DNA of 61,346 bases from an uncultured virus (IMG/VR IMGVR_UViG_3300028590_000007) (Duplodnaviria; Heunggongvirae; Uroviricota; Caudoviricetes), in the IMG/VR virus record IMGVR_UViG_3300028590_000007; one strand, written 5' to 3'. The position numbers and the translations under genes are program-made. Below are positions 11,521 to 23,104 of the stretch, one piece after another. The notes beneath the pieces were generated by a model. It made no database searches, had not been told where the DNA came from, and worked only from the letters and a program-made list of their open reading frames with translations. The stretch's first letter is position 1; every line of letters begins with the position of its first letter.

Positions 11521-11717
11521 TGTGATAGGCGTGTCAGTGTGTTTTGGTGTCTTTGTTTGTGAAGTTCAGCAGCTCTAGCAATGATAGCCTCATCACTAAG
11601 GATCTGCAGCTCAAGCCAACGAGCGAAGCCAGCGTCAACGATTTCCCGTGGACGCCCTTTGACTATTCGGACCTCTGCCTTTGCATTGGTCAGAGGAGTG
11701 TTAAGCTCCGAATTCAT
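11481..11717 (-). CDS. hypothetical protein
   Basis: 78 aa ORF overlapping both neighbours slightly. Confidence 0.65.
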   Translation of the reverse strand: MNSELNTPLTNAKAEVRIVKGRPREIVDAGFARWLELQILSDEAIIARAAELHKQRHQNTLTRLSQWLKRHNPLQRFH

Positions 11718-12297
11718 GTACTATTTTCCTTTCCACCATGTCGAGCACATGCCCCCAGTCGAATTCATGAGTCGACAGAGCGTAGCTGTGCACGTCCTTA
11801 CCGTCTAGATCTCGAAGACCTGTGGGACGCGTTTCGTCACGGAAGTAGGTCATAGCTTCTTCCAGACTGTCGGTCGCTCCACGGAAATCTTCCAGACCGC
11901 CGCCCGGGTAGTAGCTAGGTCCTGCGAATACCCAGAACCTTCCCATAGGAATTGCATTGAGAGGAGGGTTGGTCAGTACGGGGGTAGACAGTGCGTTGGG
12001 AGGAACAATTAGCTTTTCCTTTAATTCCTGCACCATCTTGTGAACAGAGGCCAAGGTGATGGGAGGCTTAAGGGAGACATACACCTGCTCACTGTCCTTG
12101 AGAATATGTCCTCCATCTAGAGGTGCTCCACCAGATGCAGCAGAAACGATCAACTCACTGGTTTCCGGTAACCCAAAGTCTTCCCGGAATTCACGGTTGG
12201 ATTTCAGACGATCCACACTCCAACCCGGATCAATCCAGTAATCGTGGTTGATGCCGTTTACTGCGACTTTGATCTTGTTACGTTTGACGACGCTCAT
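11701..12297 (-). CDS. Ubl (beta-grasp) domain fused to a YYPxGG phage domain
   Basis: N-terminal KIKVAVNGINHDYWIDPG..L.SNREFREDFGLP aligns with the Ubl units at 20482-20931; ATG 12297 is ATGA-coupled to the upstream gene. Confidence 0.75.
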   Translation of the reverse strand: MSVVKRNKIKVAVNGINHDYWIDPGWSVDRLKSNREFREDFGLPETSELIVSAASGGAPLDGGHILKDSEQVYVSLKPPITLASVHKMVQELKEKLIVPPNALSTPVLTNPPLNAIPMGRFWVFAGPSYYPGGGLEDFRGATDSLEEAMTYFRDETRPTGLRDLDGKDVHSYALSTHEFDWGHVLDMVERKIVHEFGA

Positions 12298-12556: not shown

Positions 12557-13819
12557 TTAGAACGCTTGGTACATCCGTTTACCGGAACGCTTCGAAGGGG
12601 TGAGCCTCAGGGTGGAGCCGTCGACATGCGTAATAAGAACCGAGGAGTCCGTATTGCGGATGATGCTGGCGATCTCACGGTTATACCAAGTGAGGGAACG
12701 GCTGTAGCTGCCTACGCGTGCATTGGGGTTATCCTCGTCCGTGTCATCAGTTTCAGCACGAAGGTACTGAACGTTGATGTAGTCGTCTTCATCAGGACCG
12801 AATTGCTGGAACGGAGAGGCAAACGACGCTTTGTAGAAAGCTGGAACTTCTTTGATATACTTCAGAAGTTTCTCGTCGACACTATCAAGGGCAGAAGCAA
12901 TACCGTAACGCTTGGAGTTGCGGACGATATTGCGGATGGAGTAAGCGTAAGCAGCCGCGTGCTTGTCCTTCTCCTCCAGCTCGACGAAGTTATCGACCAG
13001 AGCAAGAACCGAAGTGCGCAGCTCGGCATCGAATTCAACACTCTCGTCGCTCTCGACATTGAGGAACGAAAGGAACTCCGAAGGAGGTTCATTGAACATC
13101 TTGGCTTCATTGATGATCGCCATCAGGGAGTCCAGCGACAAACCGAAGATAGTCTCGGCCGCCTTGATAACCGCATCCCGAAGATCACCCTCTGGGATCT
13201 GGTCACAGATGACAGCACGGAAAACGTCCTGACTGAGGGCGTCGTAACGCTTGTGGTAACGAACACGCCCCGGACGACTGTTGATGAAGGTGTTGACGTT
13301 CGGGTCGTTCGAGGTGAGGACGAACAAGTGGGCAGTCGAAGAAGTACCGTCAAGAAGCGTGAGAAGATGAGCGGAATCCTCCTCGCTGTAGATCTTCTCG
13401 AACTCGTCCATGATGACGACGCATTTGACAGGGATCTTCTGTAGGAAGTCCGAGAACTCTGAACCTTTGAAGAACGAGTTGATAAGCAGGACGGGCGACT
13501 TGGACTTGAGTCCGATCATCTTGGCGGCGACAGACTTGCCCGCACCCGATTTGCCACTGAGGAGAACGCCGATACCACGTTCAAGTTTGTGCCAAGCGGC
13601 GAGAGCGCGGTCAACGAACTTGTCGTCTTCACCGTAGATCTTTTTCGGAAGTTCGAGATCTTCTTTGATTTTCAGGTAGAAACCACTCATGTCGGCTGCG
13701 ACTTCATACACGCCGACTGGGAGACCCTTGACGGGAGTGGATGCGCCATTGGTAAAACGAACTTCATTACCATTGGTGACGGAGTAAATGGGCGCTACAG
13801 TTGTTGTTTTTTCGGACAT
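12557..13819 (-). CDS. AAA+ ATPase (single AAA module)
   Basis: Walker A GKSGAGKS, Walker B VVIMDEFEK, LLTLLDG, TSN sensor, SRPGR Arg finger; start reassigned to ATG 13819. Confidence 0.92.
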   Translation of the reverse strand: MSEKTTTVAPIYSVTNGNEVRFTNGASTPVKGLPVGVYEVAADMSGFYLKIKEDLELPKKIYGEDDKFVDRALAAWHKLERGIGVLLSGKSGAGKSVAAKMIGLKSKSPVLLINSFFKGSEFSDFLQKIPVKCVVIMDEFEKIYSEEDSAHLLTLLDGTSSTAHLFVLTSNDPNVNTFINSRPGRVRYHKRYDALSQDVFRAVICDQIPEGDLRDAVIKAAETIFGLSLDSLMAIINEAKMFNEPPSEFLSFLNVESDESVEFDAELRTSVLALVDNFVELEEKDKHAAAYAYSIRNIVRNSKRYGIASALDSVDEKLLKYIKEVPAFYKASFASPFQQFGPDEDDYINVQYLRAETDDTDEDNPNARVGSYSRSLTWYNREIASIIRNTDSSVLITHVDGSTLRLTPSKRSGKRMYQAF

Positions 13820-13835
13820 ATTGGGTGCTGAGAGG

Positions 13836-13895
13836 AAATAAAAAAATAGAAAGGTGAAATGGAGGAGTGCCGCCATGCCGACACCCCTCCATCTC
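13836..13895 (-). terminator. Rho-independent terminator
   Basis: atggaggggtgtcg/cggcactcctccat stem followed by ttcacctttctattttttt. Confidence 0.8.
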
Positions 13896-14207
13896 GTACG
13901 GTCTTGCAACCAACAGCAAGGAAACCCGTATCGCGTAAGCAGAACCGTTGCTCACTGGTTACGAGTTTCGAAGACAACCACATTGGAGGTTGACGCTAGG
14001 GTGACTTCTACCTTGCACTTACCATTAGGCAGATGCTTATACCTTATACCTGAAATTAGTAACCACGGCAGGGCGTGTTAACTCCTGCTATCCTCTCCTG
14101 ACAACCGATGGCCCGGTTTAAGAGGATCACCTGTTTGAGGCAGGTGGTTCGACACTTACGAACTTCGAGGTTTAACCAACAGACGACCCACCAAGGTCGA
14201 CTGAAGA

Positions 14208-15341: not shown

Positions 15342-17006
15342 TCACAGGCTTTGAAGGTACTGCCCGATGGCAGCTGCATTCTTGCCCATGATCGGACTGT
15401 TCTTCGTGTCGTACATTACCGTTTGCTGGATGAAGCGGAGAGCTTCTTCAGCGCCTTTGCGGAGATGCTTGTTCTCAGAATCGGAATGCAGCGTAAGCAT
15501 GCGGTCGATCATGAGACGAGATTGATCTGAAGGCTTATTCAGCTGCGGCAGACTGTTGAGGGTCATTGCAATGTCCTTGTGGGTAGCGACACCCACTTCT
15601 GGAAGAACATTGATCATGTGCTGCAAACCAGAGATGGCTTCGTAACGCGACAGGGAAAAGCGCGACGACACTTCGAGGAAGAGGTGTGGAATCTTCCAGT
15701 CGGCGGAATTGATAGCTTCGTTGTTGTCAACGTCGGTATCAATAGTCGTCGCCGAATCTGTTCCAATAGGCTTCCCATTGCGAGTAATCATCGATTCCGA
15801 GATCCCCGTCACGATAGTCTTTGGGCGAGCGGGCACGCCACCCGCGCCTCCGGAAGGATAGGATGAACCATGACCACTGTAAGTCGTTCCTCCACTATAG
15901 CGACCACCTTGGCCTCCTCCGTAGTAGTTGCCACCACCATGATGGCTGGAATAGTTTGACTTTACTTCGGTGATACAGTCTTTCCACTCTTCGGGGAAGC
16001 CCTCGTCCTTGATGTGGGTTACCCAGTGCAACGACAGCTTCTCGCGGACTTCCGCAGGAAGGGAGGCATCCCAACCGGGAACTGCGATGATGTGACCGAA
16101 GTCCTTCACCGGTACCAGCTCGGAGTTCGCAGGCAGAACGCGGTTACCTTGGTTGTCATACTCCGCAGACATCTTCACCCGGATACGGGCATGGATGTCG
16201 ATAGGATACACAGCCATCTTGCCGACGGTGATATGGAAGCCCTGCTTGGTCGTCTCGTCGTCCTTGTCGGTCGCAGAGTCGAAAGCGCCCATATGAACGT
16301 GGTTGTGGGTTGTACCGTGCCAGTCACCGGAGTTGACGCCAAACTGCTCACGCAGCTTTGCGAACACTTCAAGGTTCTCCTCGGTCTCGTAATCCACCTT
16401 GACCGTCATTGCTCCACGTGTGATGCGCTGATGGAATGGGAAGTGGATGTATGCACCAGCCTCAGTGAGAAGGTGCGAGATGTGGGTCTCGGCGTTGTAG
16501 GTCTTGACCGACCAGATGTGGTACGCCACGATCTGTTTCCAGTCGTCGTACGTGATCTTCGGAGCGAGGATCTTCAGCTCCGGAGCTGCTGATTCCATGT
16601 TGAAACCAGCCGGTGGCGTTTCAGTCCACCCACGGAAGAACCTGTTTTCACGCGGAGCATAGAGCTTGCTGCCGCTGATCCGCAGACCACCTGCAGGCAT
16701 TGCGACCTGTACGTACCGTGGATCCTCTTCTTCTGGGGCTGGTTCGGACGTAACAGTGATTACCGGTTGCTTGGCAACTGCAGCCGTTGAGGCTCCTGCT
16801 GTCGGCGGTACCATCGGGTTGACGCGCACTGGTTCTTCCGGGTTACTGAGGTCTGCGTTGGCAATGGCTTCGTCAACAGTTCGATTGGTGTTGTTACCCT
16901 TACCTCCTCCGCGAGGACCACCTTGGTTCCGTTTGGACTTGTCGATGGTCTGGCCTTGCCCGCCCTTTCGGTTGGACCCTCCTTTGTTGTGATTGGTTTT
17001 GGCCAT
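15342..17006 (-). CDS. JAB/JAMM metallopeptidase (deubiquitinase-like) with disordered flanks
   Basis: Upstream Glu (NAETH) and GTTHNHVHMGAFDSATDKDDE...GFHITVG = E...HxH-x7-S-xx-D; start reassigned to ATG 17006. Confidence 0.88.
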   Translation of the reverse strand: MAKTNHNKGGSNRKGGQGQTIDKSKRNQGGPRGGGKGNNTNRTVDEAIANADLSNPEEPVRVNPMVPPTAGASTAAVAKQPVITVTSEPAPEEEDPRYVQVAMPAGGLRISGSKLYAPRENRFFRGWTETPPAGFNMESAAPELKILAPKITYDDWKQIVAYHIWSVKTYNAETHISHLLTEAGAYIHFPFHQRITRGAMTVKVDYETEENLEVFAKLREQFGVNSGDWHGTTHNHVHMGAFDSATDKDDETTKQGFHITVGKMAVYPIDIHARIRVKMSAEYDNQGNRVLPANSELVPVKDFGHIIAVPGWDASLPAEVREKLSLHWVTHIKDEGFPEEWKDCITEVKSNYSSHHGGGNYYGGGQGGRYSGGTTYSGHGSSYPSGGAGGVPARPKTIVTGISESMITRNGKPIGTDSATTIDTDVDNNEAINSADWKIPHLFLEVSSRFSLSRYEAISGLQHMINVLPEVGVATHKDIAMTLNSLPQLNKPSDQSRLMIDRMLTLHSDSENKHLRKGAEEALRFIQQTVMYDTKNSPIMGKNAAAIGQYLQSL

Positions 17007-17010
17007 GGTA

Positions 17011-18441
17011 TTAGATGAACTGCGGAGTAAGCTGATCGGGTTTGAAGGTATTGATTGCCAGAATTTTGCTATGAGCTTTCTCAAAGGCTACGATAGGTTG
17101 AGGATCTTTCGGATGTGCGGCAGCTGCAAATTCCGCGAAATGCTTCGCAGCAGTTGCATCACGCAGGTGTATCCCTGCATGAGAGTTGTCACCAGTAGCA
17201 CTGATGGTCGAGGTGAATGACGTGGGACTCACGTTCTTGGAAGTGTGCGTAGGGAAGTACATCACACCATAGAAGAACGGGCCGTCGATCCACTGATTGA
17301 AGAACTCCTGTGCGTAACCCCAGAGGGCTTCGGCGTTCAGGATGTCTCCGGGCATCTTGTTGATCGCAGTACTGTTTTGAGCCGTGAGGATCGAAAGCTG
17401 ATACGAACTGTCATACGGAGCACGTTGAACGCTGCGAATCCTGATGGCACCACGAGTAGTACCCTCTTGGGAGAGAGGGCCGCCCAGCATCTTCTCGATA
17501 CCGACGCGTGTGGCTTCTTGGAAAGTCGCAGCACCACCTGCAGAGGGTACAACGAGGTACGATACCGACAGCGAGACCATCTTGGGCTTGAACGCAGGTG
17601 CGTCCCAGATGGACCGCGCCATGTTCTTGTTGATAGTCATCTGTGAAACACCGCCTCCAACATCCCCAAACAGAGTGGAGAGACGCTGAGAACCAGCGAT
17701 GGAGTGAGTGATACCAGCGAGAGGTGAGTTCTCGAAGATGAAGATCGGACGCAGCAGGGCGACGATAAACTTCCGTGAATCCGCCGGACCATAGTAGACA
17801 CCGTTGGTAACAGGGATGGTTGCCTGAATGCAGTCAGCGATAGCCATCTTGGTCTCGCTGTTGCGGAGGGCCAGAATATGAGAGATATCCTGCAGAATGT
17901 GGGCTGGAGCACCCAGACGAGCGCGACCTTGGTCACCCCCACCTGTACTGGCAGAATTCTTCAGCATTCGCAGCATGTTCTTGTTAGCGTCCTCCTTTCT
18001 ACGCAAGAACGAGAATTTTGGAGATTCGTAAACTTCCATGAGATCTTTGTGGGTGATCTCATCGAACTTCGTATTCATGAATGCGGCAGCAGCTGGTTCC
18101 CAGCTTTGCTGAATCATGCGGGCGACAACCTTGGAACGGAAGTCAGCGCCGTAGGCAGTAGGCTCTGGGACAAACGCAGGGATGTCTGCAAGGGGAATAC
18201 CTTGGATGGCGTCGGTAGTCGAGGTAGTCCACGTGCCGCTGCTGAAGGTCAGGAGACGAACAGGCGACCCACTAGAACCGACGATTGTCGAGGTTACCGG
18301 GGGAGTCGGGATCGAGAACTGCCAAGCTGGAGCTGGAGTGGCTGGAGGTGGCGGAGTTTCGACTGCTGCAGCGGCTGGGGCCTTGTCCTTTTTGGCTGCA
18401 GTTTTGGTTACCCTCTTGGTGGCTTTCTTGGTAGTACTCAC
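17011..18441 (-). CDS. hypothetical protein inside the Ubl operon
   Basis: 476 aa; start overlaps the E1 stop; Lys/Pro/Ala-rich N-terminal arm. Confidence 0.85.
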   Translation of the reverse strand: MSTTKKATKRVTKTAAKKDKAPAAAAVETPPPPATPAPAWQFSIPTPPVTSTIVGSSGSPVRLLTFSSGTWTTSTTDAIQGIPLADIPAFVPEPTAYGADFRSKVVARMIQQSWEPAAAAFMNTKFDEITHKDLMEVYESPKFSFLRRKEDANKNMLRMLKNSASTGGGDQGRARLGAPAHILQDISHILALRNSETKMAIADCIQATIPVTNGVYYGPADSRKFIVALLRPIFIFENSPLAGITHSIAGSQRLSTLFGDVGGGVSQMTINKNMARSIWDAPAFKPKMVSLSVSYLVVPSAGGAATFQEATRVGIEKMLGGPLSQEGTTRGAIRIRSVQRAPYDSSYQLSILTAQNSTAINKMPGDILNAEALWGYAQEFFNQWIDGPFFYGVMYFPTHTSKNVSPTSFTSTISATGDNSHAGIHLRDATAAKHFAEFAAAAHPKDPQPIVAFEKAHSKILAINTFKPDQLTPQFI

Positions 18442-19157
18442 GTCAGTTTCACTTCAGTTGCTTCTTCATGCACTTCCGCTTTCGGGGCTTCCATTGGAAT
18501 ATCCTTGAAGCGGACACTGGTGACACCGTTGCGGGTGCCCTTGATTTCTGCTGGCACATTCTCCAGACTTGCGCAACGCTGCAGAGCATTGAACAGCCAG
18601 AGCATGAAGCTACCAGCGTTGTGGTTGGCAATCGGCAGTTGAGGTGCTGACTCGATTGCTTCGACGGTATTGCAGCTTTCGCCGGGGCCACGACCATCAG
18701 GGACGATGTTGTGGCGCACGTATGGGTCGCGATAGGTATCACCCCATTCCGGTATGAATAGGTATGCCTCGGGGTCTTCTTCTTCATTGGCACCCCAGAT
18801 GATCGGGATGTCCATGCGTTCCGCGATCTTTTTCGCGTAGCAGCGTGCGTCGTGGTTGTCGACAGCCACGAACAGAATCTTGACATCGTCAGGAAGCTCG
18901 GTCATGTCGGAGATATAGGTCTCCATGCATGTGATCTTCTTGTCGGTGAACTTATCGTACATCGAGGCGTAGACTTTCGCCTTGTTTTCCGAGTCACCAA
19001 AGTGTGCGCCGATTTGACGAAGAGTATTCTTCTTCTCAAACTTGTCGCCATCGATGAGGAGCAGGTTGTGCGTCATCATGAGGGCGGGCAGGATGTGGGA
19101 GGTGACTCCTCCACAACCGATAATGGCGATTGTATCAAAGGATCGTTCGATCTTCAT
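18438..19157 (-). CDS. E1/ThiF-family adenylyltransferase (Ubl-activating enzyme)
   Basis: IIGCGGVTS, IDGDKFEKKNTLRQ, NKA, AVDNHDAR; candidate catalytic Cys in GESC followed by PQLPIAN; no CxxC Zn sites. Confidence 0.93.
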   Translation of the reverse strand: MKIERSFDTIAIIGCGGVTSHILPALMMTHNLLLIDGDKFEKKNTLRQIGAHFGDSENKAKVYASMYDKFTDKKITCMETYISDMTELPDDVKILFVAVDNHDARCYAKKIAERMDIPIIWGANEEEDPEAYLFIPEWGDTYRDPYVRHNIVPDGRGPGESCNTVEAIESAPQLPIANHNAGSFMLWLFNALQRCASLENVPAEIKGTRNGVTSVRFKDIPMEAPKAEVHEEATEVKLT

Positions 19158-19166
19158 GAGTGGGTG

Positions 19167-19382
19167 TTACAGAGACTTGGACTGGTAGGTGGGGTTGTGT
19201 TTAGCAAAGATATCCCCGAGGATGCGGAGAGTTTTGCTAGGGATTTTGGGTGCTGGTTTCGGAGTCGTGAACTCCGTGATTCCTGCGGACAGGATATCAG
19301 CTGCGGCTTTGTCAGTGGGGGCTGCGCGGGCTTTAGCTGCTAGTGCGAGGAAGAAATCCCCGTCTTTTTTCTTAGCTGCCAT
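19167..19382 (-). CDS. small hypothetical protein inside the Ubl operon
   Basis: 71 aa ORF filling the E2-E1 gap. Confidence 0.7.
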   Translation of the reverse strand: MAAKKKDGDFFLALAAKARAAPTDKAAADILSAGITEFTTPKPAPKIPSKTLRILGDIFAKHNPTYQSKSL

Positions 19383-19385
19383 TTA

Positions 19386-20336
19386 TCAATCCCAGATAGG
19401 AGGGAGGGTTGCGGTGACCGTGCGAGCAATGGTTTTGGGGAACACAATGTGTAGATAGGGAGCAAGATCCCCTTCGTCAGCAATGCGTACTTCAGCGGTC
19501 ATACCTGTCATCGTCTTGGAGACATCGAGGTTACCGGGAGATTCTTCGAGGTCGATGAAGACGTCGTTGAGACCGCGTGGTCCGAAAGCACCACGGGAAA
19601 CCTGCGGGGACATACAGATGCGCCCGTCGTCGAAGATGTTATAAAGCGGAGGCTGATACAGGCGCTTGGTGGACTGCTCGACCATGTAGATGTACTGGGA
19701 GACATATCCCGGTTCACTGCGAGAACCAGCCTGCTCGGGATGGCTCTGACGTTGAACGAACATCACTTTGTCAAAGCCACACTCCTTGGCATTGATCGCG
19801 CACTTCCAGTTCATGGAGTTCTGGTTGAGATAGTGTCTGGAGTACTCCAGACCACCGCGATCCATATTGCTGGTGTATGGCTTGAACTTGATGGTTTTCG
19901 AAGCACCATCCCAGTAAGGAACAAATGCACCGTTCCAAGTGCAGTAGTCCATGATCCAGATCTGCCAGATTTCACCGGCACGTTTCCACATCGACCATTT
20001 GATGTCTTGTGCGACACCATCCACCTGAACCATCCGTTCAGTGGCCCTCATGATAGGTTCGAATGTGTCGCCACCAGTGATGTGCGAAGCGGCGATCTGT
20101 TCCACTTCCTCAATGGTGATTTTGGCAAGGGTGAACTCACCGGGTTTGACCGATGGCATGAAGGCCATCATTGACGTTGCTGGTTTGTCCACTCCGATCA
20201 CGAAACTACTCGCAGCAGGACGCTGGATAGCTTCATAAACGATTGCATCGCCAGCAGGCGGTGCAGGTGGCGGACCTCCAGCGATATCAGCTGCGACTGC
20301 GGCAGCTTCTTCTTGTGGGGCAGCGGTTGCGCTCAT
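19386..20336 (-). CDS. prokaryotic E2-like (UBC fold) protein
   Basis: LYQPPLYNIFDDGRICMS...SPGNLDV resembles the P-x-x-N-[IV]-x-x-DG-x-IC catalytic signature of prokaryotic E2 family D (PRTRC protein B type). Confidence 0.8.
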   Translation of the reverse strand: MSATAAPQEEAAAVAADIAGGPPPAPPAGDAIVYEAIQRPAASSFVIGVDKPATSMMAFMPSVKPGEFTLAKITIEEVEQIAASHITGGDTFEPIMRATERMVQVDGVAQDIKWSMWKRAGEIWQIWIMDYCTWNGAFVPYWDGASKTIKFKPYTSNMDRGGLEYSRHYLNQNSMNWKCAINAKECGFDKVMFVQRQSHPEQAGSRSEPGYVSQYIYMVEQSTKRLYQPPLYNIFDDGRICMSPQVSRGAFGPRGLNDVFIDLEESPGNLDVSKTMTGMTAEVRIADEGDLAPYLHIVFPKTIARTVTATLPPIWD

Positions 20337-20351
20337 TTAGGGTGTTGTAGA

Positions 20352-20398
20352 TAAAAACAAAGAAAGAGGGGTGACACACGTTTCCGCATGTCACCCCC
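20352..20398 (-). terminator. Rho-independent terminator between Ubl and E2 genes
   Basis: GGGGTGACATGCG-GAAA-CGTGTGTCACCCC followed by TCTTTCTTTGTTTTT. Confidence 0.85.
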
Positions 20399-20481
20399 GC
20401 AGTTTGTTGCCACCTCCGATATGGACTATCAAAGGTAGCCCGTGAGTGAGGTTCAGTCTTCCCGAACCTCACTCTGGATAA

Positions 20482-20931
20482 TTATGCCAATGCCTTGGAC
20501 GAGGCGACGGTTTGGACAGTGATGACATCACCGGCCGAAAGCGTCACGTTGGATTCAGAGCCGTTGACGAACACGCGGATGTTCGAAGGAAGAGCGAAGT
20601 CCTCCTTGAACTGACGGTCGTTTTGAAGCGTAGAGGTGGTGGTGCCGTACGGGACGTAGAAGTCGCTGCGGTTGCCATTGACATGGACAATCACTTTGAC
20701 ACGTGCAGCTGCCTTGGACGAGGCAACGGTTTGCACTTCGACGATGTCCGAAGCGGCGAGTCGCTTGTCCGCAGTAGAACCGTTAACGATAATACGGATG
20801 TTCGAAGGAAGAGCGAAGTCCTCCTTGAACTGCCGATCACTGGCGAGAGCCGAGGCGTAGGTACCGGTTGGAACCCACCAGGTGTTGGTATTGCCGTTGA
20901 TTTTGACTGCGATTTTGATGCGAGCTGCCAT
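20482..20931 (-). CDS. tandem di-ubiquitin-like (beta-grasp) precursor protein
   Basis: 149 aa = Met + 2 x 73 aa gapless units + LA; beta-grasp pattern; each unit ends VQTVASSKA; first gene of the E2/E1/JAB cluster; start reassigned to ATG 20931. Confidence 0.85.
   Translation of the reverse strand: MAARIKIAVKINGNTNTWWVPTGTYASALASDRQFKEDFALPSNIRIIVNGSTADKRLAASDIVEVQTVASSKAAARVKVIVHVNGNRSDFYVPYGTTTSTLQNDRQFKEDFALPSNIRVFVNGSESNVTLSAGDVITVQTVASSKALA
20491..20928 (-). repeat. 219-bp tandem coding repeat (2 units)
   Basis: Identical block cggatgttcgaaggaagagcgaagtcctccttgaactg recurs about 219 nt apart (near 20577 and 20796). Confidence 0.95.
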
Positions 20932-21080
20932 ATAGGTGGTTGTGTCTGTGTAGTGTGGTGTGCTCCTTGGAGCGGTATATATACAGACGCTCTCCCCTAC
21001 AGGAGATGTTTTTAAAATGCCAACCACATGATGCCGAAAGTAATCCTAGAGGATTAAGTGCTTACGCACTCTATAGCAGC

Positions 21081-21527
21081 TTAGGCAGCAACCTTTGGAG
21101 TAAGGTCGATGAACTGAGCGGCGGCGCCAATTCCATGGCTGGTGATGATTTCGCGAACACGTCGCTTGCCGCTAATGGAGAGACCGCGAACGGGGTTCCA
21201 GTAGTAGCCAGTGTCGTGTAGCTGCGTCAGATCCCGGAGGAATCCAACGGGAAGGTCTGCGACGGCGTGGTGCAGGTAGTGGCGGTATCGAGGCGACAGC
21301 AACGATTCAGCACCAAGACCTGAGCCATTCACACCGTCGGCCAACATCTGCTCAACGTCGGCGAATCGTCCAAGAGCGCAACACTCACCCTTCAGGTTGA
21401 AGAGTTTGTTAGGCACCCGACGCTTGGTATCCGCACCGTAATGCGAGATGGTGTCGTCGAGGGCATGCGCCATACGATGGGATTGAGGAATTTCGGAGCT
21501 GTAGCAAGGGGCGAGATTTAGAGCCAT
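21081..21527 (-). CDS. hypothetical protein
   Basis: 148 aa ORF (CCALGR, LTQLHD motifs). Confidence 0.8.
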   Translation of the reverse strand: MALNLAPCYSSEIPQSHRMAHALDDTISHYGADTKRRVPNKLFNLKGECCALGRFADVEQMLADGVNGSGLGAESLLSPRYRHYLHHAVADLPVGFLRDLTQLHDTGYYWNPVRGLSISGKRRVREIITSHGIGAAAQFIDLTPKVAA

Positions 21528-21652
21528 TCTCTTTTATTAGGTGATGGGGTTGTTACATCACCAGATGGACCCCGGAACTGTCCTTCTGATGTCTCCGACC
21601 AAAGGCACTGATCGTGACGATAATATACCTGAATACCACAAGAAGGGTTATC

Positions 21653-21856
21653 TTAACCGAGGCTCAGCGTATAGCACACAACTCGGTAATTCGCAGGGTT
21701 GCGATTGTAGCGGCTCTTCTCTTGTCGAGCGAGGCTACGGGTCGGTTGTACGGACGCAATGGTACCGTTGTCTTTACGTAGAACAGCCCAGAGACGTTCT
21801 GGCTCTGGCAGGTTGTAGATAGTACCTTCTTGTTTTTTGATGCTAGTGCTTTGCAT
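21653..21856 (-). CDS. small hypothetical protein
   Basis: 67 aa ORF starting 4 nt after the upstream stop. Confidence 0.6.
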   Translation of the reverse strand: MQSTSIKKQEGTIYNLPEPERLWAVLRKDNGTIASVQPTRSLARQEKSRYNRNPANYRVVCYTLSLG

Positions 21857-21859
21857 TGT

Positions 21860-22642
21860 TTATGTTCCCAGTAACTCACACTGTCTCTCGAACGGGAGTG
21901 TCGAGAAAAGTGTGAAACCAGTTCCCATCGCTTCCACGGCTCGTGCCGCTTCAGACCCCGCTACTTGTCCTGACCGTAGCGGTTGGGCGAAACTTTTATC
22001 GGTGGTCCGGAAAATCAGACCGTGCGGATCGAACGGAAGTCCGATGTCATCCGCCTCCTTTTTGGAGAAGACGACCTTGCTGAAACGCAAATCGTGATCT
22101 TGGATCAGTTTGATCTGCGTACTTTCAGTAGACGCAACCAGAGAGAAATTGAGTGGGACCTTATCCCGGTTGTTCACCCAGTAGCCGAGGCTAGTAGTCT
22201 GGGCGTGGAACTTGACCTCAGGATGTTCGGATGCTGCTTTCATCCAAGCCTTGAAGTAGTTCTCTGAAAAGAAGTCGCCCGAATAATGGACGATCATTTC
22301 CTTTGCATCCTTGGGGATGTTATTGCTGATGATGCCAGCCATCTCATCAACCGAGTCTCCTGCTGCAGCGAGCACTGCATAGTTCCTCTGGCGTCGATTG
22401 TAGATGTGGGGCGCCAGTTCCATGACGGCGCTATAGCACGTAAACCTTTCACCTGACTCTAGTGCAAGGGTGGACACGATCTCTCCCTCTAGGCGCTGAC
22501 TGTGCACCTTGGAGAGAGAACCTACGCCGCGATATGGACAGGTCCAGCCAGCGGGTAGGGAGAAGGTCAGGACATTTTTATCGACGTATGGTGCTCCAGC
22601 TTCAAAGAAGAGGCTATCGTCGCACAGGGTGAGATCAATCAT
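21860..22642 (-). CDS. GP88-like phage protein (degenerate radical-SAM-like)
   Basis: FSLPAGWTCP...CYSA...HYSGDFFSENYFKAW...PEVKFHAQT...PLNFSLVAS pattern. Confidence 0.7.
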   Translation of the reverse strand: MIDLTLCDDSLFFEAGAPYVDKNVLTFSLPAGWTCPYRGVGSLSKVHSQRLEGEIVSTLALESGERFTCYSAVMELAPHIYNRRQRNYAVLAAAGDSVDEMAGIISNNIPKDAKEMIVHYSGDFFSENYFKAWMKAASEHPEVKFHAQTTSLGYWVNNRDKVPLNFSLVASTESTQIKLIQDHDLRFSKVVFSKKEADDIGLPFDPHGLIFRTTDKSFAQPLRSGQVAGSEAARAVEAMGTGFTLFSTLPFERQCELLGT

Positions 22643-22905
22643 GTGGTGAGAATAAAACTAGCTACGTACCCACGAACATGTGGTGGGCAGGCTTCCAGTC
22701 TTGGATATATCACCAATGAAGATTTGTCGTTTGCCGGTCGATAGAATACCACGGGAAGCTGCTGTTCCCTAAATGCCAAAAACGTCGAGGGGTTAACCTC
22801 GACGAGACGACAGTGTTCAGCGAGAGCATACCGACTACCCTCGCTTTTAACAAACTCTTCAATCTCTCGGTTAGAGATCTTGTTCGAGAATAATTTCCGT
22901 TTCAC
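22639..22905 (-). CDS. hypothetical protein
   Basis: 88 aa ORF, ATGA-coupled to the next gene. Confidence 0.65.
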   Translation of the reverse strand: MKRKLFSNKISNREIEEFVKSEGSRYALAEHCRLVEVNPSTFLAFREQQLPVVFYRPANDKSSLVIYPRLEACPPHVRGYVASFILTT

Positions 22906-23104
22906 TTCCGGCGTTGGTGATCAGCGCAACGAACTCCATGTCTTTCGTTCGGTCGGCTGCATATTCGTCGGTAAGGTCCTCCTGAATCTCTTTAATGAAC
23001 TTAGCCTCGGATGTGTTGTACACACGGGTGACCGAGATGTATTGCTCATCGTCTACGAGGTAGTCAGGGAGACGGAAGATTGCTGTCGCTTTTTTGGTCA
23101 TCAC
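22871..23104 (-). CDS. hypothetical protein
   Basis: 77 aa acidic ORF. Confidence 0.65.
   Translation of the reverse strand: MMTKKATAIFRLPDYLVDDEQYISVTRVYNTSEAKFIKEIQEDLTDEYAADRTKDMEFVALITNAGSETEIILEQDL

What the first reader, a model, noticed from the sequence alone, without database searches (positions are those of the whole stretch)
20482..20931. Polyubiquitin-style precursor: two exact 73-aa units ending in Lys-Ala, capped by Leu-Ala
Seen: M|AARIKIAV...VQTVASSKA|AARVKVIV...VQTVASSKA|LA*. The units align without gaps or linker. Cleavage after SSKA would give two 73-aa monomers, both starting AAR and ending SSKA. DRQFKEDFALPSNIR and VQTVASSKA are identical in both while other surfaces diverge. 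Known: eukaryotic polyubiquitin genes are head-to-tail fusions with a short C-terminal cap that blocks conjugation until a peptidase removes it. Nearly all Ubls end in Gly, although some CBASS CD-NTases are conjugated through a terminal Ala. Inference: the JAB matures a capped precursor into two distinct Ala-terminated modifiers, a glycine-independent Ubl chemistry.
Basis: partly seen in the sequence, partly recalled or inferred. Interest (0 to 1): 0.86.

Follow-up and report, generated by a model that had tools for sequence, protein, structure and literature searches.

The report
Phage tandem ubiquitin-like tag precursor
A giant phage encodes two ubiquitin-like tags joined head to tail, each ending in lysine-alanine instead of the usual glycine, beside its own activating, conjugating and trimming enzymes, which points to a phage-run ubiquitin-style tagging system with unusual end chemistry.

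Summary
On the minus strand, 20931..20482 encodes M + two gap-free 73-aa units (45/73 identical, BLASTP 2e-34) + Leu-Ala. The AlphaFold2 model shows two beta-grasp domains; its best matches are ISG15 and linear di-ubiquitin. The window lies in a 212-kb jumbo phage. Downstream on the same strand are an E2 (conserved Cys241), a ThiF-type E1, a variable protein and a JAMM-motif protease.

Relatives have 1, 2 or 3 units. 24 of 25 units end Lys-Ala. All 9 internal junctions read KA|A. Caps vary from none to 14 residues.

Across 48 phage loci:
- 14 of 15 with the order Ubl-E2-E1-…-JAB have Lys-Ala ends, 10 of them uncapped.
- 14 of 14 with JAB directly before E1 have Lys-Gly ends.
- The E1 tree splits the two types on one branch (support 100/98).

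So Ala sits where the reactive Gly sits in sister systems. A related phage (L012) keeps QATSQKA on both of its 40%-identical units despite synonymous changes, and its junction and cap sites are identical (SQKA|A).

Cap removal and an Ala-terminal Ubl chemistry are well supported by comparison. Cleavage between the units, and the JAB as the protease, are likely but unproven. I rate this a new variant of a known kind, of high interest.

The parts
20482..20931 (-). Di-Ubl gene, 149 aa: Met, unit 1, unit 2, Leu-Ala cap, stop
   Evidence: Translation. AlphaFold2 model with two beta-grasp domains, pLDDT 78.5. Foldseek top hits are ISG15, linear di-ubiquitin and polyubiquitin, E 5e-8 to 1e-6. Family of homologues.
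20710..20928 (-). Unit 1 (residues 2-74), AARIKI...VQTVASSKA
   Evidence: HMM domain 1 of 2. Residues 72-74 have pLDDT < 50, a flexible tail and junction.
20491..20709 (-). Unit 2 (residues 75-147), AARVKV...VQTVASSKA
   Evidence: Weak NCBIfam MoaD match, 8.9e-5, below the cut-off.
20485..20490 (-). Cap codons Leu148-Ala149 after the conserved Lys-Ala
   Evidence: Caps in relatives vary: none, A, V, L, W, IA, NS, VIG, TEVLA, 14 aa.
20576..20613 (-). 38-nt exact repeat copy in unit 2 (codons QFKEDFALPSNI). Its partner is at 20795-20832 in unit 1.
   Evidence: Probability about 3e-5 from window codon usage. A gene-conversion patch or a nucleotide-level constraint; unresolved.
20337..20481 (-). 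Structured spacer after the Ubl stop: three hairpins, the last (20398..20367) terminator-like
   Evidence: 14-pair stem followed by a T-rich tail. (MFE -72.5 kcal/mol). L012 has a hairpin plus T-run at the same place.
19386..20336 (-). E2-like protein, 316 aa, with NIFDDGRIC motif and Cys241
   Evidence: Pfam Prok-E2_D 0.0023, below the cut-off. The Cys motif is conserved in 5 of 5 syntenic E2s. The L014 counterpart passes Prok-E2_D (5.1e-8, 33.3 bits against a cut-off of 25) and matches the window+L012 profile at 8e-7. Atlas leads point to Prok-E2_D.
19167..19382 (-). Small ORF, 71 aa, between E2 and E1; unknown
   Evidence: An 80-aa ORF holds the same slot in L014. Homology was not tested.
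18438..19157 (-). E1, 239 aa, a single ThiF-type adenylation domain. Has GCGG, DGDKFEKKNTLRQ, VDNHDAR and Cys162.
   Evidence: Pfam ThiF 3.6e-14. NCBIfam and PADLOC E1 matches. Invariant residues across 4 group-A E1s, including C162.
17011..18441 (-). Protein X, 476 aa, in the variable slot between E1 and JAB; unknown
   Evidence: No family match. The slot holds non-homologous proteins in the window, L012, L014 and L015.
15342..17006 (-). JAMM/JAB-motif protein, 554 aa from ATG 17006 (the ORF is open to 17084). Motif residues E173, H234, H236, S244, D247.
   Evidence: Motif. Invariant in 5 of 5 homologues. Relatives L019, L016 and L017 match Pfam Prok-JAB; L019 at 1.7e-7, 31.5 bits against a cut-off of 25. 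BLASTP links to those relatives. Atlas leads. The protein itself has no Pfam or PDB-profile hit, and the AlphaFold2 single-sequence model failed.
11701..12297 (-). 198-aa protein with a third Ubl-like domain at its N-terminus (no Lys-Ala end) and a phrog_1411 C-terminal domain. A possible Ubl-domain adaptor; membership in the system is not shown.
   Evidence: P0008.

Best explanation
The ORF is a real gene of a 212-kb jumbo phage. It encodes the modifier of a phage-borne ubiquitin-like conjugation module with the gene order Ubl, E2, small ORF, E1, variable protein, JAMM protease.

The modifier is made as a tandem precursor of two diverged beta-grasp units. Each unit ends in the family's invariant Lys-Ala, and the protein is closed by a two-residue cap (Leu-Ala).

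Proposed mechanism:
1. A Ubl-specific peptidase recognises the Ubl body plus the ...ASSKA tail and cuts after Ala. This is most likely the operon's JAMM enzyme.
2. The cut removes the cap. Because the internal junction offers the same nine P-side residues, the enzyme also splits the two units.
3. The result is two different 73-aa modifiers with a free C-terminal Ala.
4. The ThiF-type E1 adenylates that Ala, passes the modifier to Cys162 and then to the E2 (Cys241), and the modifier is joined to target proteins of the phage or host. The JAMM enzyme could also reverse this.

Shown here: the gene, the repeat, the predicted fold, the operon and its conservation, the Lys-Ala rule, and the Ala-for-Gly correspondence.

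Inferred: every enzymatic step, the internal cut, the identity of the protease, and the targets.

My odds: Ubl of a conjugation module with Ala as the reactive end, 0.8. Cap removal, 0.7. Internal cleavage into monomers, 0.55.
For: Fold. The AlphaFold2 model has two beta-grasp domains and flexible tails at residues 72-74 and 145-149. Foldseek top hits are ISG15, linear di-ubiquitin and polyubiquitin. The L012 orthologue passes Pfam ThiS (28.5 bits against a cut-off of 22.5).

Operon. E1 matches ThiF at 3.6e-14. The E2 Cys motif is conserved 5 of 5, and one counterpart passes Prok-E2_D. The JAMM motif is invariant 5 of 5, and relatives pass Prok-JAB. The same order occurs in L012, L014, L015 and 11 further IMG/VR loci.

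Lys-Ala rule.
- 24 of 25 units end Lys-Ala, and 9 of 9 junctions read KA|A.
- In the loci, 14 of 15 group-A Ubls end Lys-Ala.
- 14 of 14 group-B Ubls end Lys-Gly.
- E1s of the two types fall on either side of one branch, support 100/98, with 0 of 500 label shuffles as low.

Internal tail under selection.
- Units only 41-47% identical still keep Lys-Ala (P0009, P0011, P0027).
- L012's units are 40% identical yet share QATSQKA, with 3 of 7 codons changed synonymously, including Ser AGT/TCA. Its junction and cap site are both SQKA|A.
- A Gly-type di-Ubl (L035) keeps Lys-Gly on both units.
- P0009 and P0011 first units group together at 95/92, so two distinct units were kept through a divergence.

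Precedent from papers.
- The Bil JAB-type peptidase trims up to nine residues after the conserved Gly (PMC10557695, passages).
- The Bub JAB cuts a linear Ubl-E2 fusion after Gly (PMC11601596, Results part 1).
- Type II CBASS CD-NTases conserve a C-terminal Gly or Ala, and G432A still conjugates (PMC10449767, passages).
Against: - No experiment or read-out of cleavage exists. Everything is comparative.
- The window's own JAB and E2 fall below Pfam thresholds. The JAB model failed, pLDDT 32.8.
- In the window itself, the identical tail and the 38-nt block are identical at the nucleotide level too. They could reflect gene conversion rather than selection on the protein.
- Most units group by protein in the unit tree. 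Internal Lys-Ala could therefore partly be inherited from recent duplication or homogenisation.
- Known bacterial multi-domain Ubls (Bil, Bub) stay uncleaved between domains (PMC11601603 and PMC11601596, passages).
- Several caps themselves end in Ala (LA, IA, A), so an untrimmed end might also be usable.
- Exceptions to the rule exist: L055 ...TKQN and P0015 ...TKNA.
- Genomic context could be read for only 15 group-A loci. The 7 multi-unit database homologues come from contigs I could not fetch.
Confidence: 0.6

Rival explanations
1. An ISG15-, FAT10- or BilA-like di-Ubl. Only the C-terminal cap is trimmed, and the two domains stay joined and are conjugated as one 15-kDa modifier. The internal Lys-Ala is a relic of duplication kept by gene conversion.
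For: The best structural matches include ISG15. Bil and Bub Ubls with 2-3 beta-grasp domains are used whole (PMC11601603 and PMC11601596, passages). Units group by protein in the unit tree, and the window gene shows nucleotide-identical patches, both signs of homogenisation.
Against: - Internal tails are kept in units only 40-47% identical, and in L012 with synonymous changes.
- The junction has no linker, and in L012 it is identical to the cap site through P1'. A cap-trimming enzyme would have to be kept off it.
- The model shows no packed interface: pTM 0.43, junction pLDDT < 50.
- Single-unit forms serve the same operon type in 13 of 15 loci.
- Recalled from memory, not tested here: the N-terminal domains of ISG15 and FAT10 lack the terminal Gly-Gly motif.
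Confidence: 0.27
2. The processing is real, but another peptidase does it, from the host or elsewhere in the phage. The JAMM protein acts only as a deconjugating isopeptidase or on other substrates.
For: The JAMM gene lies 3.4 kb away, behind a terminator-like hairpin and four other genes. Ten of 15 group-A loci have uncapped single Ubls that need no maturation yet still keep the JAMM gene, so its conserved role cannot be cap removal alone.
Against: JAB/JAMM enzymes of Bil, Bub and CBASS do both jobs (papers read). No other peptidase was found in the operon.
Confidence: 0.15
3. Not a conjugated modifier. It would be a ThiS/MoaD-like sulfur carrier or a non-covalent adaptor, and the Lys-Ala tail is only structural.
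For: Weak MoaD and ThiS sequence matches. The E1 is a minimal ThiF/MoeB-like enzyme. The third paralogue, P0008, is a Ubl domain fused to another domain with no Lys-Ala end.
Against: An E2 with a conserved Cys and a JAMM protease travel with the Ubl in all 15 group-A loci, which sulfur-carrier systems do not need. Variable caps and precise head-to-tail arrays make sense only if the C-terminus must be freed. No sulfur-transfer genes such as a rhodanese or cysteine desulfurase turned up among the 25 neighbours scanned.
Confidence: 0.06

Closest known systems
Eukaryotic polyubiquitin precursors (UBI4/UBB/UBC type), and ubiquitin-RUB1/NEDD8 fusion precursors of plants (recalled from memory)
   Same: Head-to-tail units without linker. 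Every unit keeps the activation tail. A short variable C-terminal cap. Unit number varies between relatives (1-3 here). There are signs of concerted evolution between units. As in the plant Ub-RUB1 fusions, the two units here differ from each other (62% identical).
   Different: The tail is Ser-Lys-Ala, not Arg-Gly-Gly. The units are ThiS/MoaD-like in sequence. The predicted protease is a JAMM metalloenzyme rather than a cysteine DUB. The system is encoded by a phage. Cleavage has not been shown.
Bil (BilABCD) bacterial ISG15-like antiphage systems (PMC10557695; passages read)
   Same: Separate Ubl, E2, JAB-type peptidase and E1 genes. The Ubl is made with a non-conserved C-terminal extension that must be removed before the E1 can act. 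Some of the Ubls have two beta-grasp domains.
   Different: The Bil E1 is a large multi-domain protein (IAD-AAD-CYS); here it is a 239-aa single adenylation domain. Bil Ubls have a universally conserved Gly; here it is Ala. Bil is a bacterial defence system, whereas this one sits among replication genes of a phage. There are no PADLOC Bil hits, only weak Cap2-type E1 hits.
Bub / '6E polyUbl' operons (Iyer et al. 2006, PMC1779556, section 14 and passages; Ye et al., PMC11601596, Results part 1)
   Same: The Ubl has one to three beta-grasp repeats, already compared with polyubiquitin in 2006. A JAB peptidase cuts a linear fusion right after the Ubl's last residue.
   Different: Bub uses JAB-E1 or E2-E1 fusions, a DUF6527 protease and a Cys-less E2 that works through oxyesters. 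Only the last domain carries the reactive Gly, and the domains stay together. Here the enzymes are separate, both E1 and E2 keep a Cys, every unit carries the tail, and the end is Ala.
Type II CBASS Cap2/Cap3 with the CD-NTase as 'Ubl' (PMC10449767; passages)
   Same: This is the only described E1/E2/JAB system in which a C-terminal Ala is a natural alternative to Gly. The window's E1 gives weak PADLOC hits to Cap2-type E1-E2 proteins.
   Different: The conjugated protein there is an enzyme, not a beta-grasp Ubl. Cap2 is an E2-E1 fusion. It is a defence system of bacteria.
Sister phage modules found here (group B: JAB directly before E1, Ubl ending Lys-Gly)
   Same: Homologous E1, JAB and Ubl proteins in IMG/VR phage contigs. 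The same ...(A/S)G/S-x-Lys-(Gly/Ala) tail. One member (L035) is a di-Ubl with Lys-Gly on both units and a one-residue cap.
   Different: Terminal Gly instead of Ala. A different gene order. Many of their Ubls carry an N-terminal Rho_N-like domain. Their E1s lie on the other side of a branch with 100/98 support.

Membership tests
Ubiquitin-like beta-grasp proteins (ThiS/MoaD/ubiquitin superfamily) | beta-grasp fold | tested here: met
   The AlphaFold2 model has pLDDT 78.5 and two beta-beta-alpha-beta-beta units. Foldseek finds ISG15, di-ubiquitin and polyubiquitin at probability 1.0, E 5e-8 to 1e-6. This is a predicted model, not a solved structure.
Ubiquitin-like beta-grasp proteins (ThiS/MoaD/ubiquitin superfamily) | significant match to a curated ThiS/MoaD/ubiquitin sequence model | tested here: inconclusive
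   The window protein gets only NCBIfam MoaD 8.9e-5 (22.9 bits against a cut-off of 49.5) and no Pfam Ubl family. The L012 orthologue passes Pfam ThiS (28.5 against 22.5).
Ubiquitin-like beta-grasp proteins (ThiS/MoaD/ubiquitin superfamily) | C-terminal Gly (usually Gly-Gly) as the activated residue | tested here: not met
   The units end Lys-Ala in 24 of 25 units and 14 of 15 group-A loci. Sister phage systems end Lys-Gly, 14 of 14.
Polyubiquitin-type precursor | head-to-tail units without linker, each keeping the C-terminal tail | tested here: met
   9 of 9 junctions read KA|A, and 17 of 17 units of multi-unit proteins end Lys-Ala.
Polyubiquitin-type precursor | short non-conserved C-terminal cap, and unit number varying between relatives | tested here: met
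   The caps seen are none, A, V, L, W, IA, LA, NS, VIG, TEVLA and 14 aa. Unit numbers are 1, 2 and 3.
Polyubiquitin-type precursor | proteolytic release of monomers | not testable with these tools
   Supported only by inference: selection on internal tails and the flexible junction in the model.
Bil (BilABCD) | gene set of Ubl + E2 + JAB + E1 | tested here: met
Bil (BilABCD) | multi-domain E1 (inactive plus active adenylation domains and a Cys domain), as described in PMC11601596 | tested here: not met
   The E1 is 239 aa with one ThiF domain spanning residues 9-171.
Bil (BilABCD) | match to defence-system models | tested here: not met
   PADLOC gave only weak Cap2-type E1-E2 hits (2e-5 to 4e-3) for the E1 and nothing for the Ubl, E2 or JAB.
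Bub / 6E polyUbl | JAB-E1 or E2-E1 fusion, DUF6527 protease, and an E2 with Ser in place of Cys | tested here: not met
   The genes are separate. No DUF6527 was found among the 25 neighbours scanned. The E2 Cys is conserved in 5 of 5, and E1 Cys162 is invariant in 4 of 4.
JAMM/MPN+ metalloprotease (for the 554-aa protein) | E ... HxHx7SxxD zinc and catalytic motif | tested here: met
   E173, H234, H236, S244 and D247 are invariant in 5 of 5 homologues.
JAMM/MPN+ metalloprotease (for the 554-aa protein) | significant match to a JAB model, or the JAB fold | tested here: inconclusive
   No Pfam or PDB-profile hit for the protein or its 4 close homologues. The AlphaFold2 model is unusable. More distant syntenic relatives pass or approach Pfam Prok-JAB: L019 at 31.5 bits against 25, L016 at 23.7, L017 at 24.3. 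Atlas leads also point to Prok-JAB.
E2/UBC (Prok-E2_D) (for the 316-aa protein) | UBC-type active-site loop with catalytic Cys, and a match to an E2 model | tested here: inconclusive
   The window protein scores 18.1 bits against a cut-off of 25. The motif N-x3-4-G-x-(I/W/F)-C is conserved 5 of 5. The L014 counterpart passes (33.3 bits) and is linked to the window protein by BLASTP 1.3e-5 and profile 8e-7.

The most novel reading that the evidence does not exclude
A whole clade of phages runs its own ubiquitin-like tagging pathway whose modifier is activated through a C-terminal alanine. In some members, including this jumbo phage, the modifier is made as a true poly-Ubl polyprotein, and a JAMM enzyme cuts it into two non-identical tags. 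That would be a viral, glycine-independent counterpart of polyubiquitin. The two tags would give the phage two distinct marks for host or phage proteins during infection. A Ubl-domain protein and an AAA ATPase encoded nearby might act as readers of those marks.
Probability: 0.45. Interest if true: 0.88.

Novelty: new variant of a known kind. Interest (0 to 1): 0.8.

Why it matters
Ubiquitin-like conjugation in bacteria has so far been described as a defence against phages (Bil, Bub, type II CBASS), and its modifiers end in glycine. Here the same kind of machinery is carried by phages themselves, among replication genes. It forms a coherent clade of at least 15 loci whose modifier ends in alanine. 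The clade sits beside a sister clade of at least 14 loci that keeps glycine.

That gives a natural experiment on how an E1 pocket and a JAMM protease adapt to a bulkier terminal residue. It also gives a second, independent case of the polyubiquitin design: several modifiers from one translation product, with a removable cap.

If the targets are host defence or housekeeping proteins, this would be a new class of phage takeover or counter-defence tool. The proteins are small and soluble-looking, and the predictions can be tested directly in E. coli.

In six text searches I found no paper describing phage-encoded Ubl-E2-E1-JAB modules or Lys-Ala-terminated Ubls. The library lacks most subscription journals, so this does not prove that none exists.

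Tried and rejected
- Plus-strand reading of the interval gives an unrelated frame.
- Phage GenBank collection (INPHARED). No DNA match for 17000-23000. No tblastn match for the Ubl, E2 or JAB. The E1 found only Salmonella phage Arash.
- Word-based homologue search found only the protein itself, for both the Ubl and the E2.
- The search for related loci with the Ubl or with P0006 found nothing in viral contigs or in metagenome contigs. Alignment A2 was too diverse to search with.
- The hits L004-L009 and L010 were judged chance pattern hits. For L004-L009, an unrelated repeated element reads CQRQFREDFALPS in one frame and the matches are not Ubl-like. L010 matched only 14 residues and was not examined further.
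- I could not fetch genomic context for the seven multi-unit database homologues. The only hint is that P0005 (di-Ubl) and P0036 (JAB homologue) both have a longest contig of 30,694 bp.
- AlphaFold2 on the JAB domain without an alignment gave pLDDT 32.8, unusable.
- Complex prediction on E1 + unit 2 returned no verdict (score 0.00; controls not run). This is no evidence either way.
- Pfam and PDB-profile searches with the JAB family alignment found nothing. phmmer of the E1 against PDB found nothing.
- The X proteins in the slot between E1 and JAB show no detectable homology to each other.
- Earlier findings of this scan: none for this genome or sequence.
- I considered a prohead-protease site or an ssrA-like degron as the meaning of the ...KALA end. 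Neither explains uncapped Lys-Ala ends or the Gly-type sister systems, so I dropped both.
Full report
**Observation.** The interval 20482-20931 holds a gene on the minus strand; the plus-strand frame there is unrelated. From the ATG at 20931 it reads M, a 73-aa unit (AARIKI...VQTVASSKA), a second 73-aa unit (AARVKV...VQTVASSKA), then Leu-Ala and a stop.

- The units align without a gap. They share 45 of 73 residues and 145 of 219 bases, BLASTP E = 2e-34.
- The duplication is old and under purifying selection: dN 0.33, dS 0.98.
- One oddity: codons 33-44 form a 38-nt exact repeat. From the window's codon usage this has a probability of about 3e-5. The last five codons are also identical. Outside that block only 13 of 33 identical residues share a codon, against 10.8 expected.
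- So inside this one gene, some of the identity may come from gene conversion between the units.

**Setting.** The window is part of a 212,352-bp IMG/VR virus record. Almost all long ORFs run on the minus strand. Around the gene lie replication and nucleotide-metabolism genes:
- DNA polymerase, primase, UvsX-like recombinase, helicase, ligase, thymidylate synthase and exonuclease;
- an RNA polymerase beta-like subunit and a DUF1064 resolvase-like protein.

This is a jumbo phage, and the gene is not in a head or tail module.

**The operon.** Downstream of the di-Ubl on the same strand:
- A 145-nt spacer that folds into three hairpins. The last looks like a terminator.
- A 316-aa protein with the E2-type loop NIFDDGRIC (Cys241). 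It scores Pfam Prok-E2_D 0.0023, below the cut-off.
- A 71-aa ORF.
- A 239-aa ThiF-type E1 (Pfam 3.6e-14) with the nucleotide-binding and Mg motifs and Cys162.
- A 476-aa protein with no family match.
- A 554-aa protein with an exact JAMM motif, E173...H234-x-H236-x7-S244-x2-D247.

The window's own E2 and JAB are weak by sequence models, but transitive evidence is good.
- *JAB.* Its motif is invariant in 5 of 5 homologues. Syntenic relatives reach Pfam Prok-JAB; L019 scores 31.5 bits against a cut-off of 25.
- *E2.* The Cys loop is conserved in 5 of 5 syntenic proteins. The L014 counterpart passes Prok-E2_D (33.3 bits) and matches the window+L012 profile at 8e-7.
- *Atlas.* Look-alikes point the same way.

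**Fold.** An AlphaFold2 model built on seven di-Ubl sequences has pLDDT 78.5. It shows two beta-grasp units joined by a low-confidence junction (residues 72-74) and a low-confidence C-terminal tail (145-149). The pTM of 0.43 indicates no fixed packing of the two domains. Foldseek's best PDB matches are ISG15, linear di-ubiquitin, tandem Ubl domains and a polyubiquitin (E 5e-8 to 1e-6).

**The family.** A profile of the two units plus a third paralogue was searched against 1.84 billion representative proteins. It found 26 proteins at E <= 1e-3. I read 20 of them. The five not read are 658-1388-aa proteins with short partial matches. P0023 is low-complexity.

- Seven are multi-unit: six with two units and one with three.
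- Eight are single units with the same tail.
- Four lack the tail. These include the window's own paralogue P0008 and a Ubl-HicA fusion.
- In a unit-level alignment, 24 of 25 units end Lys-Ala (P0015 ends Lys-Asn-Ala). All 9 internal junctions read KA|A.
- The caps are LA, V, L, VIG, W, IA, L, NS, A and A, plus two Lys-rich tails. P0020 and P0025 end exactly at Lys-Ala, as does the fragment P0012.
- Identity between units within a protein ranges from 99% down to 41%.

**Genomic relatives.** Direct searches with the Ubl failed. Searching with the JAB family and then with E1 alignments gave 47 distinct IMG/VR contigs. I scanned them with HMMs built from the proteins above. With the window that makes 48 loci.

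- *Group A, 15 loci.* The order is Ubl-E2-E1-...-JAB. The Ubl ends Lys-Ala in 14 of 15. Ten are single and uncapped (L014, L015, L024, L026, L028-L033). Four are capped: the window (LA), L012 (A), L037 (TEVLA) and L038 (14 residues). The exception is L055 (...TKQN). Two are di-Ubls (the window and L012).
- *Five further loci.* They have E1 followed by JAB but are cut off upstream.
- *Group B, 14 loci.* The JAB lies directly before the E1. All 14 Ubls end Lys-Gly, three of them with one extra Cys. One (L035) is a di-Ubl: ...EAGTKG|AAGDT...EAGSKG|C.
- *Group C, 14 loci.* These have JAB and E1 but no detectable Ubl. Phage Arash is similar.
- Some loci are near-copies of each other. Seven exact E1 duplicates were dropped before tree building.
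- In a tree of 41 distinct E1s, the 13 Lys-Ala rows and 12 Lys-Gly rows fall on either side of one branch. Support is 100/98, and 0 of 500 label shuffles did as well.

L012 belongs to a distant relative of the window's phage, with 39.5% GC against 49.8%. Synteny extends over five more genes, at protein identities of 26-39%.

**What this says about the tail.** Ala stands exactly where sister systems have the canonical reactive Gly. The switch goes with a dedicated E1 clade. Natural proteins that stop at Lys-Ala show that this is the mature end. Variable extensions of 1-14 residues then only make sense as removable caps, as in Bil, where up to nine non-conserved residues follow the conserved Gly and block the E1 until removed (PMC10557695, passages). 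A natural Ala end is documented for type II CBASS CD-NTases, and a Gly-to-Ala mutant still conjugates (PMC10449767, passages).

**Is the precursor cut between the units?**

For:
- Internal tails are retained in units that have diverged to 41-47% identity.
- In L012 the two units are 40% identical yet share QATSQKA. Three of those seven codons are changed synonymously, one by a Ser AGT/TCA switch. This shows selection on the peptide rather than copying of DNA.
- In L012 the junction and the cap site are the same sequence through P1' (SQKA|A). An enzyme that trims the cap meets the same site inside.
- The junction has no linker and is predicted to be flexible.
- Single units serve the same operon type in 13 of 15 loci.
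- The design recurs in the Gly-type clade (L035).
- Arrays arose or were homogenised repeatedly. At least one pair of distinct units was kept through a divergence: the first units of P0009 and P0011 group together at 95/92.
- JAB enzymes are known to cut linear Ubl fusions after the last residue (BubCD on BubAB; PMC11601596, Results part 1).

Against:
- Nothing was measured.
- Most units group by protein, and the window gene shows nucleotide-identical patches. Homogenisation could therefore carry the internal tail along.
- The multi-domain Ubls of Bil and Bub are used whole.
- Ten group-A loci keep the JAB although their Ubl needs no maturation. The JAB's conserved job must therefore include something else, presumably deconjugation.

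I put internal cleavage at about 0.55, cap removal at 0.7, and an Ala-activated conjugated Ubl at 0.8.

**Comparison with known systems.** The gene set equals Bil, but it is not Bil. The E1 is a minimal single-domain enzyme, the end is not Gly, the host is a phage, and there are no PADLOC Bil hits.

It resembles the 6E/Bub 'polyUbl' idea of Iyer et al. 2006 (PMC1779556). However, it lacks the fusions, the DUF6527 protein and the Cys-less enzymes of Bub.

The closest analogy in logic is eukaryotic polyubiquitin. For two unlike units, the analogy is the plant ubiquitin-RUB1 fusions. Both comparisons are recalled from memory.

Six text searches found no description of such phage modules. I did not test it.

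**Verdict.** It is a new variant of a known kind of system, and its predictions can be tested directly.

Noticed in passing
window 11701-12297 (-) and 12557-13909 (-): A 198-aa protein has a third Ubl-like domain at its N-terminus (35% identical to the units, no Lys-Ala end) fused to a phrog_1411 domain. It lies directly downstream of an AAA ATPase (phrog_2376; Pfam AAA 1.7e-6). The pair might act as a Ubl-domain adaptor with an unfoldase.
   Followed up: partly
window 20576-20613 and 20795-20832 (-): A 38-nt exact repeat lies inside the two otherwise synonymously saturated units. It covers QFKEDFALPSNI and contains AAGGAGG. It is either a gene-conversion patch or a nucleotide-level constraint.
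   Followed up: partly
window 15342-17006 (-): The JAMM protein has a Lys/Gly-rich N-terminus. After the catalytic domain it has a Gly/Ser/Tyr-rich low-complexity stretch, and comparable stretches occur in its homologues P0035-P0038.
   Followed up: no
window 17011-18441 (-); L012 8967-9887; L014 7167-7946; L015 8925-9698: The slot between E1 and JAB is always filled, but by proteins with no detectable similarity to each other (476, 306, 259 and 257 aa). They could be specificity factors or targets.
   Followed up: partly
L016, L017, L039, L041, L043, L050 (group-B loci): Lys-Gly-ended phage Ubls carry an N-terminal Rho_N-like domain (L017: Pfam Rho_N 7.6e-12). They follow JAB-E1 directly, and no clear E2 was seen there.
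   Followed up: partly
L035 3327-3842 (IMG/VR contig of 175 kb): A Gly-type di-Ubl. Both units end ...EAG(T/S)KG, the junction reads KG|AAG, and the cap is one Cys. The gene order is Ubl-E2-JAB-E1.
   Followed up: partly
L011 (Salmonella phage Arash OQ632216, gp248c-gp246c) and 14 IMG/VR loci (L020, L052, L054, L056-L066): These carry distantly related E2-JAB-E1 or JAB...E1 modules in phages, with no detectable Ubl of this family. What they conjugate is open.
   Followed up: partly
L055 4611-4832; protein P0015: Two exceptions to the Lys-Ala end...ANTKQN, in a locus with the group-A gene order, and ...ASTKNA.
   Followed up: no
protein P0019: A family Ubl domain is fused to a HicA toxin-antitoxin domain (Pfam HicA_toxin 1.1e-15).
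   Followed up: no
L004-L009 (JGI metagenome contigs): A repeated element in one frame reads CQRQFREDFALPS... and mimics the Ubl's most conserved motif. I judged these chance pattern hits.
   Followed up: partly
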